Sequence record: PP445229.1
Length of the DNA stretch: 64,000 nt
From: Escherichia phage EC.W2-6
Strand: one strand, 5' to 3'
Shown piece after piece: positions 48,652 to 62,661 of this stretch; positions within the stretch are counted from its first letter, which is position 1; each line of letters opens with the position of its first letter. The notes beneath the pieces were generated by a model. It worked only from the letters and a program-made list of their open reading frames with translations. It searched no databases and had not been told where the DNA came from. Position numbers and translations under genes: made by a program.

Positions 48652-50193
48652 TTAGTAACTCTGATTCCATCTGCTTACGTTTGCCTCATACAGAGAAGCA
48701 CTTCCGTAGCTAACGTCATGCTTAGAGCGACCACGATGTGTAACAGAGCACGCTGAATAGCGCATTGCATCCATTAAGTCATCATGTTCTTTAATAATCT
48801 TACCAACCTTACGGTGATATCTAGCTTTCTCTTCGAATAGCTTAGCATTAGCGGCTGTGTTAAAGATTTTAAAGCGTCCACTCATCATTCTTTCTCGGAT
48901 ATCTGTGATTCCCGGTTCTACAAAGAAGTTCTTTTTACCATCCATTCCAATTTTGTTGTAGAAGGTCTCACTCTGTACGTTAACTCCTGCATTCTTATAG
49001 AATTGAGCAACAGATGAGCCACTACCTTTCTCAATATTGTCCGCATCGTGCGGTAGGATGACAGGAATCCACTGACCACGACCATTAATAGCTGGAGCAT
49101 GATACACTGGAGTAAAGCCACCTTCTTTATATGAGTCGTAAACATAGATAGTATCCGTGTTTGCATCGTAAGCTGTCCAAACAGCAGCAGTTGGGTGATC
49201 AATACCAATATCAATTGCACAGACACGTTTCCACGTATCAGGAATTTCGAATGGTTCACATTTAATTGTGTCATCCGATACATCATAAATCAAACCACTT
49301 CCTAACAATGGCATACCTTTCGAACGCATCTCTAACTGCCACGCTGGAATACCTTCAGTCATATCTTTTATATCTTGGTCAGTGATATGTCCACCTAGGT
49401 CTGCATGAGCATCCCACCAAGAAGCGTTCTGGAAATATAGAGAACCTGTGTTCTCATCCCCTTCGCCTTTCATAAATTTATCTACCAGTTCAGTTAAACC
49501 GTTCTCTGGTGTAGCTGTAATTGTAACTAGACCTTTAGTTGTGAGTGTACGTGTGACGCACTGTGCGAATATAGCCATAGACTCGTATGGATCTTCTTCG
49601 TCTAACCAAATGTAGTCAACTGTTGCACCCATCAATGTGTGTTCACCCTGTTGGGTTGAACGGAATTCTAATGTACTTAAACCGTCAAACTCCCCTCTCT
49701 CATTTTGATGTTTGATTTGTACGATTTGAAGTTTGTTACCATCTCGTTCTATCGTGTCAATGACGATAGCATCACGAGGAATGACACCTGTCCCCAATAA
49801 GTTTGTATCCTTTCCGATAGGTGTACCAAACAATTCCTTTTGCAATACTTTCCTTGTGGAATCCCCTGTAATACCAACTGCCCATGCTAAGATAGGTCTT
49901 TTAAATTTATATCCTGTCCACCAAGTTGGGTAGCGACCTGTGACATGACAAGCAAACTCGTATGCCTCGCTATAAGATTTACCAACACGGTTCGCTGCAC
50001 ACAAGAATCTAAAGCGATGCTTCAATCCTGCTGCATAAAATTTCTTTTGGAAGTCATACGCCTTGAAAGACAAAATCTTATTATACTTCCTCCATTGGTC
50101 ACGCTCTTTCAACATATTCAATAGTGCTTTCTTTTCCTCTACACTAAGATTGTTACCAGTTAGAGCTTCATAAATTTGTTTATCTAATGACAT
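48652..50193 (-). CDS. terminase large subunit
   Basis: Walker A-like AANRVGKS, Walker B IWLDEE, C-terminal nuclease-like region. Confidence 0.85.
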   Translation of the reverse strand: MSLDKQIYEALTGNNLSVEEKKALLNMLKERDQWRKYNKILSFKAYDFQKKFYAAGLKHRFRFLCAANRVGKSYSEAYEFACHVTGRYPTWWTGYKFKRPILAWAVGITGDSTRKVLQKELFGTPIGKDTNLLGTGVIPRDAIVIDTIERDGNKLQIVQIKHQNERGEFDGLSTLEFRSTQQGEHTLMGATVDYIWLDEEDPYESMAIFAQCVTRTLTTKGLVTITATPENGLTELVDKFMKGEGDENTGSLYFQNASWWDAHADLGGHITDQDIKDMTEGIPAWQLEMRSKGMPLLGSGLIYDVSDDTIKCEPFEIPDTWKRVCAIDIGIDHPTAAVWTAYDANTDTIYVYDSYKEGGFTPVYHAPAINGRGQWIPVILPHDADNIEKGSGSSVAQFYKNAGVNVQSETFYNKIGMDGKKNFFVEPGITDIRERMMSGRFKIFNTAANAKLFEEKARYHRKVGKIIKEHDDLMDAMRYSACSVTHRGRSKHDVSYGSASLYEANVSRWNQSY

Positions 50194-50262: not shown

Positions 50263-50736
50263 TTAACTCTCGTCCGCTTCCTCCCCCTTTTCAGCGTCCT
50301 CAGAGTTGTCTTCTTCTGGAGGCATAACGTCGATACCAAGTGCTCCAGTCAAGAAGTCCTTGATTTGTGCATTCAATGATTCTTCGTTGATTACATTCTC
50401 TTCCTCAATCTTAACTTCAACAGAGGCCGCCTTAGGATATACCAGATCTGCAACTTTTGATGCAGCCTTGAATCTAAGATCAGGTGGAATATTAGGATCT
50501 TCGTAAATTTGAATTAACACTTCATCAGGAGACAAATGACTTGCAGCAACACGGTCCAACATTAATTGTGTCAGTTTACCTCTACTACCTCTGGGTCGTC
50601 CGAATTTATTTCCCTTTTGAAACTTCCCATTGCTTGGGTTCATACCACGGCCTTCAAGTTCTTCCGTTACTCCGGGTAATCTTCCTGTAATCTCAGCTAC
50701 CTGTGCAGGCGTGAGTTCTCCGTTTTCTCCAAACAT
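50263..50736 (-). CDS. terminase small subunit (putative)
   Basis: 157 aa immediately upstream of large terminase; acidic C-terminus. Confidence 0.45.
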   Translation of the reverse strand: MFGENGELTPAQVAEITGRLPGVTEELEGRGMNPSNGKFQKGNKFGRPRGSRGKLTQLMLDRVAASHLSPDEVLIQIYEDPNIPPDLRFKAASKVADLVYPKAASVEVKIEEENVINEESLNAQIKDFLTGALGIDVMPPEEDNSEDAEKGEEADES

Positions 50737-50792
50737 TTTATACTCCTTCTACATTATCAACAACACAAAAAGCCTCCCAACGGAGGCAAATA

Positions 50793-51425
50793 TTACTTAC
50801 AATCACCAACGGACAGGTTAAACATCTTACCTAGAGCAATCGTCTCACCTTCCCACGGAAGTTCTGCACCCTTCTCTTCCTCTAAAAGAATAGAGCCGTC
50901 GACCAAAAATTTTTCGTAGTCTCGCAGTGCGTCGTCTACTAGCTCACTCTTGTGAATCCATGTAATTGTTTCTGTACCATCCTCTTCGATTCTAACATCA
51001 CGATGCCATTCATCTTTGGAGGTAATATAATCATGGAGCATTTCGTATTCAGCTTCTTCAATCATCTCAATCATTGCACGAGCATAGTCAGGGAGGTGAT
51101 CATGTTTAGTAGATTCGTATTCAACTACTTCCAGAGTAGAAGGCTTAGCCCGTGCAACTTCTTCAAGTACTTTTGAGCGATCTTTGTAGTAGTTCTCATA
51201 TTTATCACCAATAGTACCGACTTGAAGTCCACGGTATTGTTCTACTAAACTCATCATATCTTTCTTCTCCGTAATAGTTGGTTTAAGAATACTTCCACTA
51301 TATAAATCTTGTACAGCCAATCCTGAAACATTTCCCATAGTTTCTAAATGCTGTAAGCTACAACCAGATCGACATAGCTGTGAATTGTAATCGTTAAGGT
51401 CCATCGCTTGGATTAAATTATTCAT
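50793..51425 (-). CDS. hypothetical protein
   Basis: Start at internal ATG 51425 with AGGGAGA RBS. Confidence 0.45.
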   Translation of the reverse strand: MNNLIQAMDLNDYNSQLCRSGCSLQHLETMGNVSGLAVQDLYSGSILKPTITEKKDMMSLVEQYRGLQVGTIGDKYENYYKDRSKVLEEVARAKPSTLEVVEYESTKHDHLPDYARAMIEMIEEAEYEMLHDYITSKDEWHRDVRIEEDGTETITWIHKSELVDDALRDYEKFLVDGSILLEEEKGAELPWEGETIALGKMFNLSVGDCK

Positions 51426-51672
51426 TTGTATCTCCCTTGCTGTAATCTTTGTATGTTTCTTTTCTGTAAGTGCGGAATGCTCTGAAGAAGAGCCAACCAA
51501 AACTACTTACATCAATTGTAATATCGAAATCTGTTTCATCATCTAAATCAACAAGACGGCCTAAGCAAGTAGCTTCCATCCCTTCTTCAGAGTCACTGTT
51601 GACCACGAAAGCGTATGTCTCCGTTCTGAACCGAGGCACCATCTCTGATAAAAAGTCTAGTACTAAATTCAT
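51418..51672 (-). CDS. hypothetical protein (first gene of late operon)
   Basis: GAGGAGA RBS; acidic 84-aa product. Confidence 0.4.
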   Translation of the reverse strand: MNLVLDFLSEMVPRFRTETYAFVVNSDSEEGMEATCLGRLVDLDDETDFDITIDVSSFGWLFFRAFRTYRKETYKDYSKGDTNE

Positions 51673-51696
51673 AATTCTTCTCCTCTGAATAAGAGT

Positions 51697-51978
51697 ATAA
51701 AGGGCACATCATAAGACCTACCCGTAAAGGCCACCTCACATTAACACCCGTGAGAATACCTGTATTCATTTTCGTAGTCTTCTTCAGAGAAGCTACCGTA
51801 TTCATCTTCTGTCATACATCCCTCTGATAAAGTTAAGACATAAAGGGGACGTCATCTTTGATGACTACTTCACATTAAGGCACCCCCATAAAGGCCATGT
51901 CACGTTAAGGCCTATCCATCCATGTGCTGTGTTTAAGCTTACCACATTTACTACATCTCCAAGTGGACTTATAAAGGG
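51697..51978. repeat. three degenerate ~135-bp direct repeats (ATAAAGGG / CACATTAA units)
   Basis: ATAAAGGG at 51697, 51840, 51971, each followed by related CCCGTAA / CACATTAA segments. Confidence 0.5.
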
Positions 51979-52264
51979 TGTGAACTCTTTCATCCCCGTA
52001 AGCTTTGCGTATCCGATAGTACTCATGATCACATTTGAATTGCTTAATGATTAACTTAATTTTCCACATAAGTTCTCTTTCAACCTTATATATAAGAGTT
52101 TAAAATACAGATTTATAAAAAATAAAGATGTATATATCTGTTTAAAATTCTGATTTGACCGAGTGGGGCTAGCCGCTCGCCGCGCGTTTCCTAAAAGGGG
52201 GGAGTCCTCATTTAAAAAAGGGTTATTGGCAATGCCTTTACACCTCCTTCCACGTTCCAACCTT

Positions 52265-52327
52265 TCCCCGTGCCTACTCCCCGTTATTCTTTCCCCGTGT
52301 ATACCATCCTATTCATTAGCTACCCGT
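52265..52327. repeat. short direct repeats (T/C)CCCGT array
   Basis: TCCCCGT at 52265, 52278, 52292 and TACCCGT at 52321. Confidence 0.5.
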
Positions 52328-52636
52328 TTATTTAGTACCCCTTTAGAGAGTGAGAGAAAGGCTATACTCTGATAAGGCACAATCATAACAGGTCTAATAA
52401 TACCGTATTGTTACCGTTCAGCTCCCCATAGTTTGAATGTAAATAGTTTCAATAGTAATGATTATGAGTGCAATAATGATGTATGTATTAATTAAGTGGA
52501 TGATTGTAATTCTTTTAATAATTGCTTTTATTCTTTTCTTTTTCAGCGTGCCTTTGTGAGCGTAGCGAACGTCTTTGATGTTTGAGTTATACAATTATTT
52601 AAGTGGTATATTATTACCGCACTATCTTGCTATGTT

Positions 52637-52720
52637 TCCCCGTGGTCTACCCTGCGGTTGTATGCTCCCCGTGTCCTGGTCTGTTGGTCTGCTACCCGTA
52701 GCACCAGCGTAACACCCGTA
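52637..52720. repeat. short direct repeats CCCCGTG / ACCCGTA array
   Basis: TTCCCCGTG 52637, CTCCCCGTG 52665, TACCCGTA 52693, CACCCGTA 52713. Confidence 0.5.
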
Positions 52721-52836
52721 GGATTAGTGTTATAAAGTAACAATAGCTAGTAAGCTGATTCTCTGAGTATGGAAGGTTTAGTAAATTAAATTCCTTTAGT
52801 TTTCAGTGAGTTATAAGAAAGTTAGAAAATAAATGG

Positions 52837-52864
52837 TTGACAGGTTTTTCCTTTATTATATAGT
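52837..52864 (+). promoter_or_regulatory. sigma70-type early promoter
   Basis: TTGACA, 16-nt spacer, TATAGT; spacer TTTTCCTTTAT shared with promoter at 55090. Confidence 0.5.
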
Positions 52865-52908
52865 TGCGATTGTAATTTGTAGTTTTCATCAACCATAAGG
52901 AATATCAA

Positions 52909-53781
52909 ATGTCTAAAGTAGCAATTAACCACTTGAACAAAGCAAACGAAAGCCTTTCCTCTTTAGGCTTAACCGTTGGTAGTCCTGATGCGTGGATGGA
53001 AAACGAAAGCGCACGTAAAGGATTCAAAAACTCTGTAATGCTGGCTTGCTTGATCATTAATTCTACTGCGAACGCCTTACAGTGTGAAGATGAAAGCACG
53101 TTCAAAGAGAATGGCTTTACCGATATACAGGACGCTATCAACTGTTACATTCAGGCAAATTTGGATAGCTGGAATCAGAAAGATTGGCCTGAGTCATGCC
53201 GTGATGTGAAAGCTGAATTATCCCGCTTGTCTGTCATGGTTGAAGCATGGAACAAGAAAAACAAGAAACAACCAATCAAGCCTACTGTTGCAAGTAAGAT
53301 TATGAAGTCTGTTAATCTGGCAAGTTATGCACTGGTTGCAGCTATCGGTGTTAGTGCACTGGTCACGTCTCTTTCTGATAAGGCTATCGCTAGTCCTGCT
53401 CCTGCAACTGATGCGGCTAGTGTCTTCTCTAGTTCCATCAATAAGGGTTGGATGATTTGCAACGGTGCGGATAGTGACGGCAATAATATCGTGCTAAAGA
53501 TGAAATTTAGCAACGTAACAAATGATGGAGTTCTCTTTCAATCTAAAACGTTAGATAATCAGCCTAACAGTGATCTAGTTCTCAAGCGTACTGATAACGA
53601 TGCGGATATGGTGACATTTGGCACTGTACAACGTTATGAAGACGTTAAAGCTGTAACCAACCTAGTGAGCTATGGCCCGATCAATGAGTCGATGATCGCC
53701 ACCACGGTTTACAATAACGCTGATAATGCTGTTTATACTGTTCACGTTAATTTAGCCAACTGCATTAAGGCTAGTAAGTAA
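52909..53781 (+). CDS. early protein, unknown function
   Basis: First ORF downstream of a sigma70-like promoter; central hydrophobic helix. Confidence 0.5.
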   Translation: MSKVAINHLNKANESLSSLGLTVGSPDAWMENESARKGFKNSVMLACLIINSTANALQCEDESTFKENGFTDIQDAINCYIQANLDSWNQKDWPESCRDVKAELSRLSVMVEAWNKKNKKQPIKPTVASKIMKSVNLASYALVAAIGVSALVTSLSDKAIASPAPATDAASVFSSSINKGWMICNGADSDGNNIVLKMKFSNVTNDGVLFQSKTLDNQPNSDLVLKRTDNDADMVTFGTVQRYEDVKAVTNLVSYGPINESMIATTVYNNADNAVYTVHVNLANCIKASK

Positions 53782-53805: not shown

Positions 53806-54069
53806 ATGGCTATCAAAGAAATTAAGTTATCTAATGGCTTTTCTTGTTTTGTTGGTGGAAGCTCTATCCTGTTTAATACACTTGATGGTCAGATAACGTT
53901 ACCTGTTATCACTTTTTGCAGGATGGAATATCAGCCTCTTAAAGATTGGCTAGCCTTTGCTGATTTTGAAATTACCCGTGAAGACTTCAAATCAATCTAT
54001 ATTGACGGTGATTTATCACTGGCTAACCTGCTCAATCATGGACTAATTAAGGGTGATATTAATGGGTAA
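53806..54069 (+). CDS. early hypothetical protein
   Basis: ORF with GGGAG RBS. Confidence 0.45.
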   Translation: MAIKEIKLSNGFSCFVGGSSILFNTLDGQITLPVITFCRMEYQPLKDWLAFADFEITREDFKSIYIDGDLSLANLLNHGLIKGDING

Positions 54070-54316: not shown

Positions 54317-54420
54317 TGATTCATGATTATTTTTGGCGTTGCTTGTTCGTTGTTACAGTGGCGTTATTCGTCGCTGATATGCTTTATTCTTATATTCTCT
54401 AACTATAGGTGATTATTATC

Positions 54421-54786
54421 ATGGGTATTATCAAATTTGTAGTAAAAGTATTCGTGGGCTTCTTCCTTGTCGTTCTCCTGCTGGGTGTGCTCCTATCGGC
54501 TATGGGTAGCGTTAAGGCTGCAACATTCTCCCCTGCTACGGTGGAAGGTTTACAGTGCACCTATTTGATAGAAAATTATGATACCGGTAAAAAGTCACCT
54601 AAAGTTATTATTTTGCATGTAAATGATTTCGATCATGTGCAATCAGATAGTAAAACTATTCTACTGGTAAATGAAACTACTGGTAAACAAATCACGGTCG
54701 ATCACTTGATGCGCTCATCGTTAACGCTCTTTGATGAGTCCATGAATGAAATGGCATCCGGTAATGGTCAATGTGTAAATCCATAG
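54421..54786 (+). CDS. early secreted/membrane protein
   Basis: N-terminal signal/TM (FVVKVFVGFFLVVLLLGVLLSA); followed by terminator. Confidence 0.45.
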   Translation: MGIIKFVVKVFVGFFLVVLLLGVLLSAMGSVKAATFSPATVEGLQCTYLIENYDTGKKSPKVIILHVNDFDHVQSDSKTILLVNETTGKQITVDHLMRSSLTLFDESMNEMASGNGQCVNP

Positions 54787-54863
54787 GCTTAATCTTTCTC
54801 CTGTATTGTGCCGTAGTCATGCCTATGGTCATAATTTATCTGATGCTTTAAATCCTTCCTGTA

Positions 54864-54890
54864 AGCCTCCTAGTGAGGCTTTTCTCTTTT
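54864..54890 (+). terminator. intrinsic terminator
   Basis: AAGCCTC-CTAGT-GAGGCTT then TTCTCTTTT. Confidence 0.6.
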
Positions 54891-55089
54891 ATGAGGTGAT
54901 TGTATGCCTTACTCCCTTTTAGCTCGTTGTGGTGCGTTACAGGCCGCTTATTATTGCTTTACAAGCCGTTTTCTATGATGTATCACGCGCCCCCGCTCTT
55001 TTACCTCCTGATTTCTTCCGGTGTCCTACCGACAATAAAATAAATTCCTTTATAAAACAGTGAGATGAAAAATAATTTGAAAAAAGGGT

Positions 55090-55117
55090 ATTGACATGAT
55101 TTTCCTTTATAGTAATA
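55090..55117 (+). promoter_or_regulatory. sigma70-type early promoter
   Basis: TTGACA, 16-nt spacer, TAATAT. Confidence 0.55.
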
Positions 55118-55296
55118 TGAATCCCGTAGTAAGCAGTAAGTAACAACAAGTAGTAAAAACTCCTCGATAGGTGATTAGCATCACGGTAAAAGGCTTCAAC
55201 GGGGAGCGGTAGGAATACCGACAGTAAGACGCACAATGAAGGTGCTACGCTCTTTAAAAATCAGGCTAGAAAGTGAAAATATTCTTAAAAAGAGTA

Positions 55297-55325
55297 TTGA
55301 CACCGAAAACAGCCTGATTCATAAT
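55297..55325 (+). promoter_or_regulatory. sigma70-type early promoter
   Basis: TTGACA, 17-nt spacer, CATAAT; near-duplicate of promoter at 55599. Confidence 0.55.
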
Positions 55326-55443
55326 AAGCACTCAGTCAGCGATGACTTAAAAAATCCCGCTCTTTAAAAACTTATCATCTTGCCTTTTCGCATAGATTCA
55401 CGCGAGATAAGGGAAAAGAATAAAAGAAGATGATAAAAAAGAG

Positions 55444-55472
55444 ATTGACAAGCTAACACGATGTGTTAAGCT
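55444..55472 (+). promoter_or_regulatory. possible sigma70-type promoter (weak -10)
   Basis: TTGACA with poor -10 (AAGCTG) at 17 nt. Confidence 0.25.
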
Positions 55473-55598
55473 GTAAATGCTACACCGCTCTTTAACAATA
55501 TGAATCATAAGTTAAGCATCACCGCTTAATCTTCAATCAAATAAAGCTGATTGATATATCCTCCCAATAGCGGGAACGACGAAAAAGATTAAAAAGTG

Positions 55599-55627
55599 GT
55601 TGACAGCGAAAACAACATGATTCATAA
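55599..55627 (+). promoter_or_regulatory. sigma70-type early promoter
   Basis: TTGACA, 17-nt spacer, CATAAT. Confidence 0.55.
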
Positions 55628-56549
55628 TGAGCACTCACTAAGCAAATCACCGCTTCAGTGAAAAGCGTAACAACGGCTAACAGTTGCATAGTGTGAGAAA
55701 GCACACTGATAGATTTACCGCTCTTTAATAATTTAAACATTCTCCTATATCGGTTGAATATGTTAGATGATAATAACCATCGGATAACATACCAGATAAA
55801 ACGGTGTAAGATTCTCTAAACTATCAGAGAAAACAATCTTATAATCCCTTGCTGGAAACGTCACCACTGATAAACGGATTCATTGAGTGTACGCAAAGAT
55901 TTAAGCTAATCGCCCACGGTTAAGGGTAGCGGCGGTCATCGCTAACAAGGCGCTACAGTGAAAGAAGTTAATCAGGGTAGGCAAGCCCGAAGAATTAACG
56001 CTCAATTGAGAGCGGCGGGGAGTGGTTAAAAAGTGGCAAATTGCTATTTAACAATAAGGTTTAGTGTGAACGTTTACGATGTGAATGATTTGAGGCCACT
56101 ATTGATGGCGTACATAGTCAGTTTATGTAGTAAACTTGCCGAAAGATATAAAACGTCAGAACATTAGACGGTCAATGACTCTTTCACAATAGCATCCCGT
56201 TGTGGGCGATGGCTAGTGATTGAGAGTTGATACAAAAGGATAGGCGAGAGCGAAAGCAAAGTAGACGATATTGCCGACGGTTACAATAAACGTAACTAAT
56301 TAGAGTCGGACGCACTGCCTTATTGTGATGATTGATCATCGCTATCAGGTCGGCTTCGTTTATAGCGACTAATTAAAGATACCAGATGAAACATCACGGA
56401 TAAGGGGGCGGCAAGGTTAACTCCTGATAAGACCGCCCCGCTTACCTATAACTACTTAACAACGAGTGGTTATAGTTAAGTTAATAGTGACTTAAACAAG
56501 CTCATAGAGAGCGGGGCAATAGCGCCCTTACAAGTGAAAGGTGAATATC

Positions 56550-62585: not shown

Positions 62586-62661
62586 GCGCTCTTAGCTCAA
62601 TGGATAGAGCAGTAGCCTTCTAAGCTATTGGTTACAGGTTCGAGTCCTGTAGGGCGCACCA
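62586..62661 (+). tRNA. tRNA-Arg (anticodon UCU), CCA encoded
   Basis: Cloverleaf by hand: 7-bp acceptor GCGCTCT/AGGGCGC, D-arm GCTC/GAGC, anticodon stem GTAGC/GCTAT with loop CTTCTAA, T-arm ACAGG-TTCGAGT-CCTGT, then ACCA. Confidence 0.85.

What the first reader, a model, noticed from the sequence alone, without database searches (positions are those of the whole stretch)
51690..52900. Repeat-dense 1.2-kb region between late and early blocks: candidate genome terminus, packaging site or origin
No credible ORF lies between the start of the late operon and the first early promoter. The stretch holds three degenerate ~135-bp direct repeats, two arrays of CCCCGT(G)/ACCCGTA repeats, an AT-rich GTTTAAAAT..GATTT direct repeat (52098-52157) and a GC-rich island (52160-52200). 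With terS/terL adjacent and early genes starting just beyond, this is where terminal repeats or pac signals of a rotated assembly would sit.
Basis: partly seen in the sequence, partly recalled or inferred. Interest (0 to 1): 0.6.

Follow-up and report, generated by a model that had tools for sequence, protein, structure and literature searches.

The report
Phage genome end: collapsed terminal repeat
This stretch is where the linear DNA of a phiEco32-like coliphage begins and ends: it holds the family's known 193-bp terminal repeat, surrounded by one-directional short repeats much like those at the ends of phage T7, so it is a correct reading of an already described feature.

Summary
The window is a Kuravirus (phiEco32-like) genome, 100% identical to Escherichia phage EC.W8-1, whose record is deposited as a rotated circle. 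The two ends of the phiEco32 record carry an exact 193-bp direct terminal repeat (DTR). They map to window 52171 and 52363, so 52171-52363 is the single collapsed copy of the DTR. Junctions rebuilt from YF01 (ends read on nanopore reads) and Paul (PhageTerm) align colinearly.

Parts of the description need correcting:
- A conserved 54-aa CxH...CxxC gene lies at 51905-52069 (-).
- The "three 135-bp repeats" reduce to one ~40-nt similarity plus short ATAAAGGG motifs.
- The late promoter sits further left, near 50750.

The CCCGT repeats are real: 10 copies against 0.34 expected, all on one strand, at positions conserved in 14 relatives. Suseptimavirus-like genomes carry CCCAT at the same places. 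Spacing clusters at about 14 and 29 bp. T7's concatemer junction, checked directly, has the same layout with CCTAAAG. I infer that these arrays are loading sites for the packaging or end-processing machinery. No evidence for a replication origin was found.

The parts
52171..52363 (+). Single collapsed copy of the 193-bp direct terminal repeat (DTR). In virion DNA it would be present at both ends.
   Evidence: phiEco32 ends map to 52363 and 52171. YF01 and Paul junctions are colinear. The sequence is single-copy in the window. Sequence conservation stops abruptly after 52363 in all relatives.
52140..52235 (.). Most conserved block of the region, spanning the left DTR boundary (52170|52171). It includes the GC-rich island; the boundary falls inside GGCT|AGCC.
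   Evidence: Identity is 0.91-0.94 across 18 genomes. It is the only part still found by blastn in Suseptimavirus records. See the alignment.
52192..52222 (.). Internal homopolymer direct repeat TAAAAGGGGGG-N10-TAAAAAAGGG, the reverse complement of CCCTTTTTTA-10 nt-CCCTTTTTTA described inside the SU10 terminal repeat.
   Evidence: Coordinates; description in PMC4281155.
52266..52327 (+). Array 1, inside the DTR: CCCCGT at 52266, 52279 and 52293, and ACCCGT at 52322 (spacing 13, 14 and 29).
   Evidence: same positions +96, +109, +123, +152 in 14 Kuraviruses. Motif columns are 0.977 identical against 0.876 for spacer columns, p = 0.04.
52364..52625 (.). AT-rich non-coding spacer (GC 0.31) with three conserved blocks: 52424-52499, 52525-52549 and 52593-52621.
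   Evidence: Indels are not multiples of three, so it is not coding. No Rfam match.
52638..52719 (+). Array 2, outside the DTR: CCCCGT at 52638 and 52667, ACCCGT at 52694 and 52714 (spacing 29, 27 and 20), interleaved with TGGTCT three times. The fourth copy lies in a 20-nt unit present in only a few relatives.
51673..51904 (.). Indel-prone spacer between two leftward genes. It carries RTAAAGG at 51697, 51724, 51840 and 51888, and CCCGT at 51721 and 51747.
   Evidence: Large deletions or insertions occur in YF01, Paul and phiEco32. Identity falls to 0.32-0.36 at 51771-51830.
51741..51815 (-). 24-aa ORF (MTEDEYGSFSEEDYENEYRYSHGC), present in only some relatives; doubtful gene.
51905..52069 (-). 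Real small gene: a 54-aa CxH...CxxC (zinc-ribbon-like) protein, the first leftward gene next to the terminus.
   Evidence: phrog_7696 at E = 6e-17. Intact with amino-acid-level divergence in 16 of the 17 relatives and in three genera; not seen in EP335, whose locus is truncated there.
52098..52139 (.). 42-bp tandem duplication of the conserved TATATA..GTTTAAAAT..GATTT element just outside the DTR; specific to this phage.
   Evidence: D3. The gap is present in all 17 relatives.
52837..52864 (+). Strong sigma-70 early promoter (TTGACA-16-TATAGT) for the rightward early genes.
   Evidence: Conserved in relatives that keep the same first gene. A promoter upstream of the homologous SU10 gene is reported in PMC4281155.
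52909..53781 (+). First rightward early gene (homologue of phiEco32 gene 128).
50263..50736 (-). Candidate small terminase subunit. The gp36-type late promoter motif TAATGTAGA lies just upstream at 50748-50756.
   Evidence: Profile match to NV1 and PaP3 TerS at E = 0.0025 and 0.07. The YF01 paper assigns the homologue as TerS. Motif.
48652..50193 (-). Large terminase subunit.

Best explanation
The stretch is the concatemer junction of a Kuravirus genome. Window 52171-52363 is the one copy, collapsed by assembly, of the 193-bp DTR that bounds the linear virion DNA.

Shown by homology: during infection, genomes are joined head to tail through this repeat. The terminase cuts at both boundaries, which read ...CT|AGCC... 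on the left and ...AAAGGCT|A... on the right, and the repeat is duplicated so that each packaged genome carries it at both ends. In window orientation the layout matches T7: DTR, then an AT-rich spacer, then a strong host-type early promoter and the early genes. The terminase genes and a short leftward early unit lie on the other side.

Inferred: the one-directional CCCGT repeats form a protein-loading array. There are 4 copies inside the DTR, 3-4 about 470 bp to its right and 2 to its left, spaced at about 14 or 29 bp. The array most likely serves the small terminase or end-processing complex and positions the cuts. The strongly conserved block 52140-52235 across the left boundary would be the core recognition and cleavage site.

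The confidence of 0.85 is for the junction and DTR identification, which I put at about 0.95 on its own. The loading-array mechanism taken alone is about 0.4-0.45.
For: - Terminus. There is an exact 193-bp repeat at both ends of the phiEco32 record, and the ends map to 52363 and 52171. YF01 and Paul junctions are colinear. Published end determinations: phiEco32 by restriction mapping and primer walking, YF01 by whole-genome nanopore reads, and 30 relatives by similarity (PMC9965538); Paul by PhageTerm (PMC6787329); SU10 reads drop sharply at both boundaries (PMC4281155).
- Boundaries. Conservation peaks across the left boundary and collapses immediately after the right one.
- Arrays. Enrichment has P = 4e-12, with 10 copies on one strand and none on the other. 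Positions are conserved in 14 Kuraviruses. Suseptimavirus-like genomes carry mainly CCCAT in all three locations, which indicates change in concert. Spacings cluster at 12-16 and 26-31 bp in three genera.
- T7 comparison. T7's junction has 19 CCTAAAG/CATAAAG copies in one orientation, left of, inside and right of its 160-bp repeat, mostly 13 bp apart.
- Terminase. The TerS candidate and TerL lie 1.4-3.5 kb away.
Against: - There are no reads or virion DNA data for this phage; the terminus rests on homology.
- The factor that binds the arrays is unknown. The TerS assignment is weak (E = 0.0025; the AlphaFold model has pLDDT 67; Foldseek found nothing).
- Within alignments, motif columns of array 2 and of the left pair are not more conserved than their surroundings (p = 0.38 and 0.77).
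- The left pair lies in DNA that is deleted in some relatives.
- LUZ24, a short-DTR phage with a related TerL, shows no clean array, so such arrays are not required in general.
- No significant hairpin potential was found at either boundary.
Confidence: 0.85

Rival explanations
1. The arrays and the AT-rich spacer form a replication origin, with iteron-like repeats next to a DNA-unwinding element. This could be in addition to the terminus.
For: Array 2 has 3-4 direct repeats about 29 bp apart and adjoins a 260-bp stretch of GC 0.31 with conserved blocks. TGGTC, the T7-type primase recognition sequence (recalled from memory), occurs three times in array 2. The more distant Cronobacter phage A24 has 5-6 perfect DnaA boxes in the equivalent non-coding region.
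Against: There is no DnaA-box cluster here. The conserved core of each repeat is only 5-7 nt, against the usual 17-22 nt of an iteron. The same motif also sits inside the DTR and to its left, which an origin does not explain. TGGTC is not enriched in the window (69 and 67 copies on the two strands). The minimum of cumulative GC skew only reflects the change in gene orientation. No paper in the library links phiEco32 to an origin at this site.
Confidence: 0.15
2. The repeats are operator sites of a phage or host regulator that controls the divergent early promoters on either side of the terminus.
For: The region lies between a leftward early unit (51905-52069 and beyond) and the rightward early promoter at 52837. 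The left motifs lie upstream of gene 51418-51672.
Against: Four copies lie inside the DTR, 500 bp or more from any promoter. No sigma-70 consensus was found on the minus strand. The layout mirrors T7's junction repeats, which are not known as operators (their function is from my own knowledge).
Confidence: 0.12
3. The short repeats are functionless remains of slippage and duplication in a recombination-prone non-coding region.
For: The region does gain and lose units: the 42-bp duplication, the 20-nt unit of array 2, and the large indels at 51747-51866.
Against: The motif keeps strict single-strand orientation, conserved positions in 14 genomes, discrete spacing and a concerted motif shift between genera.
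Confidence: 0.08
4. The region is a headful pac site, giving permuted and terminally redundant genomes rather than fixed ends.
For: TerL is about 32% identical to P22-type headful terminases.
Against: Fixed 193-bp repeats with sharp ends are reported for phiEco32, SU10, Paul and YF01, and the sequence here is homologous to them.
Confidence: 0.02

Closest known systems
193-bp direct terminal repeat of phiEco32 and other Kuraviruses (SU10, Paul, YF01)
   Same: Homologous sequence, identical length, the same boundaries, and the same position between the gene 1 and gene 128 homologues.
   Different: In this assembly the repeat is collapsed to one copy inside a rotated circular record. This phage also has a private 42-bp duplication just outside the left boundary and one A-to-G change in the first homopolymer repeat.
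Concatemer junction of phage T7: 160-bp terminal repeat with flanking arrays of short CCTAAAG repeats
   Same: A short DTR. One-directional 5-7-nt repeats lie left of, inside and right of the repeat, with 13-14-bp spacing. Host-type early promoters follow a few hundred bp beyond, and a leftward unit lies next to the end (searches compared with 54, 95, 98). The motif left of the DTR here (RTAAAGG) even resembles T7's C(C/A)TAAAG.
   Different: The phage family is unrelated and the terminase is P22/LUZ24-like. There is no phage RNA polymerase, so T7's polymerase pause at the junction cannot apply. The main motif differs (CCCGT). The function of the T7 arrays is, to my knowledge, not established either.
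Multi-site terminase recognition regions: lambda cosB R sites, P1 pac hexamer arrays, SPP1 pacL/pacR
   Same: Several short repeats flank a terminase cleavage site. SPP1's multiple contact points are mentioned in PMC7672466; the lambda and P1 cases are from my own knowledge.
   Different: Those systems make cohesive ends or headful cuts, not duplicated blunt terminal repeats. No binding data exist for this phage.
184-bp DTR of Pseudomonas phage LUZ24 (related TerL, 39% identity)
   Same: A short exact DTR with sigma-70 promoters a few hundred bp inside both ends.
   Different: No single oriented repeat family is evident.

Membership tests
Kuravirus direct terminal repeat | Sequence homologous to the phiEco32 terminal repeat | tested here: met
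   blastn of both phiEco32 ends gives 86-90% identity and is colinear across the junction.
Kuravirus direct terminal repeat | Length of 192-193 bp with the same boundaries | tested here: met
   Mapped ends at 52171 and 52363 give 193 bp. The boundary sequences CT|AGCC and AAAGGCT|A are conserved.
Kuravirus direct terminal repeat | Position between the leftward terminase-side genes and the first rightward early gene | tested here: met
Kuravirus direct terminal repeat | Physically present at both ends of virion DNA, with sharp ends | not testable with these tools
   This needs reads or virion DNA of this phage. It is documented only for relatives.
T7-type concatemer junction | Short DTR with oriented short-repeat arrays inside it and on both sides | tested here: met
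   Window. T7 measured directly.
T7-type concatemer junction | T7-like packaging proteins and a phage RNA polymerase pause signal at the junction | tested here: not met
   The listed TerL relatives are Kuravirus, LUZ24-like and P22-like phages, and no T7-group record appears in the spread listing. The family uses host RNA polymerase with phage sigma factor gp36 (PMC12276001). So the region works like a T7 junction but does not belong to that family.
Iteron-type replication origin | Cluster of DnaA boxes or initiator iterons next to an AT-rich unwinding element | tested here: inconclusive
   An AT-rich element and repeats are present. There is no DnaA-box cluster, and the repeat core is shorter than typical iterons.
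Headful pac site | Permuted genomes with variable ends | not testable with these tools
   Homologues have fixed ends. This phage's reads are not available.

The most novel reading that the evidence does not exclude
The one-directional short repeats around the DTR (CCCGT in Kuravirus, CCCAT in Suseptimavirus-like phages, about 14.5-bp pitch) would be the loading track of the end-processing or packaging complex. They would then be the functional equivalent of T7's CCTAAAG arrays, whose role is, to my knowledge, still unexplained. That would mean unrelated short-DTR podophages share one rule for marking genome ends, with the motif co-evolving with the binding protein.
Probability: 0.35. Interest if true: 0.5.

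Novelty: already known. Interest (0 to 1): 0.25.

Why it matters
In practice it lets the deposited circular records (EC.W8-1, EC.W14-3) be re-opened at the true ends: start at 52171 in window coordinates, and add a second 193-bp copy. It also corrects the gene calls next to the terminus.

Scientifically, the terminus itself is textbook for this family. The modest added value is a comparative observation. The oriented repeat arrays are conserved in position, shift motif in concert between genera, and mirror the T7 junction. This offers a tractable second system for asking what such arrays do.

Tried and rejected
- Rfam (E up to 1) and tRNA scans of the region found nothing.
- A scan for minus-strand sigma-70 promoters for the leftward genes found no match at the tool's threshold.
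- gp36 late-promoter motif: the only near match in the region (52310-52318) lies inside the DTR on the wrong strand. The GAATGTAAA at 52435 is not conserved in phiEco32 itself, so it was rejected as a promoter.
- DnaA boxes: no cluster.
- Hairpins at the DTR boundaries: z-scores of +0.45 and +0.68, so nothing.
- AlphaFold model of the TerS candidate: pLDDT 67 and no Foldseek match in the PDB.
- Alignment-based test that motif columns are more conserved than spacer columns: marginal for array 1 (p = 0.04), null for array 2 and the left pair.
- LUZ24 ends examined for a comparable array: none clear.
- Salmonella phage SeKF_80 ends: no terminal redundancy in the record and no clear motif.
- The primary phiEco32 papers (PMC2587145, PMC3275717) are not held, so I could not check whether the arrays were already described there.
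- The CCCCGT at 51994 and the ATAAAGG at 51971 were removed from the arrays because they lie in conserved codons of the 54-aa gene.

Full report
**Identity of the window.** Megablast of 51600-52950 finds 93 phage records, all Escherichia or Shigella phages of the phiEco32 group. Two are 100% identical: EC.W14-3 and EC.W8-1. EC.W8-1 is a Kuravirus (Gordonclarkvirinae) deposited as a 76,408-bp circle, with this stretch at 54600-55950. So the assembly is rotated, and any terminal repeat has been collapsed to one copy. Relative to the phiEco32 reference, the window is in reverse orientation. TerL (48652-50193) and its neighbours are on the minus strand, and the gene 128 homologue (52909-53781) is on the plus strand.

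**The terminus.** The linear phiEco32 record carries an exact 193-bp repeat at both ends. blastn maps position 1 to window 52363 and position 77554 to window 52171, an interval of exactly 193 bp. I rebuilt concatemer junctions from the ends of phiEco32, YF01 and Paul and aligned them with the window. They run colinearly through the whole region.
- YF01 ends were read on full-length nanopore reads, and 192-193-bp repeats were identified by similarity in 30 group members (PMC9965538).
- Paul's ends were predicted by PhageTerm (PMC6787329).
- SU10 reads stop sharply at both boundaries (PMC4281155).

The repeat is single-copy in the window.

**Conservation.** I aligned 18 genomes: 14 Kuravirus, one Nieuwekanaalvirus and three Suseptimavirus-like.
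- The best conserved block is 52140-52235 (identity 0.91-0.94), which straddles the left DTR boundary.
- It is the only segment that blastn still detects in Suseptimavirus records.
- At the right boundary...GAAAGGCT is nearly invariant, and the sequences diverge with indels from the next base onward.
- Both boundaries read CT|AG in most genomes: CT|AGCC on the left, and GGCT|AG or GGCT|AT on the right. Here the left cut falls in the palindrome GGCT|AGCC.
- If the boundaries are homologous, the repeat would be about 205 bp in EP335 and about 249 bp in the Suseptimavirus-like genomes. This is an inference.

**The short repeats.** CCCGT occurs 10 times on the plus strand in the 1071 nt of non-coding DNA, against 0.34 expected (P = 4e-12), and never on the minus strand. 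The copies fall into three groups:
- inside the DTR: 52267, 52280, 52294, 52323;
- right of it: 52639, 52668, 52695, 52715;
- left of it: 51721, 51747.

The DTR copies sit at the same offsets (+96, +109, +123, +152) in all 14 Kuraviruses, and array 2 keeps 3-4 copies about 29 bp apart. In Bas87, 101114BS3 and EK010 the repeated word in the same three places is mostly ACCCAT (10 copies in Bas87 and in 101114BS3, 6 in the truncated EK010 locus), again on one strand only. Such a shift in concert is what dispersed sites of one binding protein would show. Neighbour spacings in the three lineages cluster at 12-16 and 26-31 bp.

Two results temper this. An alignment-column test is only marginal for array 1 (p = 0.04) and null for array 2 and the left pair. 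The fourth copy of array 2 lies in a 20-nt unit that most relatives lack.

**Comparison with T7, made directly.** I fetched both T7 ends and confirmed the 160-bp repeat. I then counted C(C/A)TAAAG: 19 copies, all in one orientation, left of, inside and right of the repeat, mostly 13 bp apart. The E. coli promoters follow a few hundred bp further on. The layout here is the same: DTR, arrays, AT-rich spacer, then the strong sigma-70 promoter TTGACA-16-TATAGT at 52837-52864. The motif on the left side (RTAAAGG at 51697, 51724, 51840, 51888) resembles T7's.

Membership in the T7 family fails, however. The terminase is LUZ24/P22-like, and the group uses host RNA polymerase with phage sigma factor gp36 (PMC12276001). 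LUZ24, which has a related TerL and a 184-bp DTR, shows no clean array.

**Corrections to the description.**
- The '135-bp repeats' are not long repeats. Only one ~40-nt A/B similarity beats shuffles. That stretch (51673-51904) is an indel hot spot, with large deletions in YF01 and Paul and a 66-nt insertion in phiEco32.
- ORF 51905-52069 (-) is a real gene. Its product, the 54-aa protein MWKIKLIIKQFKCDHEYY...RCSKCGK..., is intact in 16 of the 17 relatives across three genera, with amino-acid-level divergence (EP335, whose locus ends just upstream of the gene's expected position, is the exception). It matches phrog_7696 at E = 6e-17. The CCCCGT at 51994 lies in its conserved YGDE codons, so it is not part of the arrays.
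- The 42-bp duplication at 52098-52139 is private to this phage.
- The gp36 late promoter reported upstream of phiEco32 gene 6 (PMC4331800) corresponds to TAATGTAGA at 50748-50756. The genes between it and the terminus are classed as early in SU10.

**Mechanism.** The homology to published termini is shown. That the ends are generated by cuts at 52170|52171 and 52363|52364, with duplication of the repeat as in T7, follows from the published data on relatives. That the arrays load the packaging complex is my inference.
- The candidate small terminase (50263-50736) gives only a weak profile match to the NV1 and PaP3 small terminases (E = 0.0025 and 0.07). This agrees with the HMM-based assignment in the YF01 paper.
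- Its AlphaFold model is poor, and Foldseek found nothing.
- A pitch of about 14.5 bp would be compatible with DNA contacting successive subunits of a ring. This is speculation.

**Alternatives.** An origin of replication cannot be excluded as a second function of the AT-rich spacer plus array 2. I found no DnaA-box cluster and no supporting literature. An operator role or junk repeats fit the orientation, spacing and concerted motif change less well. Headful packaging is contradicted by the fixed ends of the relatives.

**Verdict.** This is a real feature, correctly interpreted, and already known for the family. The repeat arrays and their parallel with T7 are the only part that might be new.

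Noticed in passing
L040/L041 (Cronobacter phage A24, NC_070973, both record ends): The record has an exact 127-bp terminal redundancy, which looks like a SPAdes k=127 overlap rather than a true DTR. Its ~2.6-kb non-coding stretch holds 5-6 perfect DnaA boxes (TGTGGATAA) and an oriented CTCAAT repeat family (8 copies against 1). It also holds a GGGCT|AGC...AAAAGGGGAAGT block resembling the Kuravirus DTR boundary core, so the true end may lie there.
   Followed up: partly
L004 296-496 (phiEco32 phi32_1) versus window 51905-52069 (-): RefSeq annotates phi32_1 as a 66-aa ORF (MSTIGYAKLTG...). The conserved product at this locus is the 54-aa CxH...CxxC protein in another frame, so phi32_1, and probably the overlapping phi32_2 and phi32_3, look mis-called.
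   Followed up: partly
L037, L038, L039 (Bas87, 101114BS3, EK010): If the boundary motifs are homologous, these Suseptimavirus-like genomes would have a DTR of about 249 bp, with 44-nt and 14-nt insertions carrying extra CCCAT copies. This compares with the 53-bp DTR reported with caution for SU7.
   Followed up: partly
window 52728-52742: A small conserved inverted repeat, TGTTA-TAAAG-TAACA, lies between array 2 and the early promoter (DNA fold z = -2.3). It is conserved across genera. Function unknown.
   Followed up: partly
window 52487-52499 and 52594-52606: Direct repeat ATTAATTAAGTGG / ATTATTTAAGTGG, 107 bp apart in the AT-rich spacer, conserved in the Kuravirus panel. TTAAGTGG occurs only 5 times in the window, all on the plus strand.
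   Followed up: no
one search hits H1 and H7: EC.W14-3 (69,164 bp) is 100% identical here but about 7 kb shorter than EC.W8-1. 'Phage PH444' is a 114,913-bp record containing this Kuravirus region, which may be a chimeric or concatenated assembly.
   Followed up: no
window 53806-54069 and about 54409-54786: In EC.W8-1, small early proteins are annotated 'DNA polymerase B region' (87 aa) and 'terminase' (about 121 aa). These look like over-annotations carried over from phiEco32 genes 127 and 125.
   Followed up: no
window 62586-62661: A single tRNA-Arg (anticodon TCT) gene on the plus strand.
   Followed up: no
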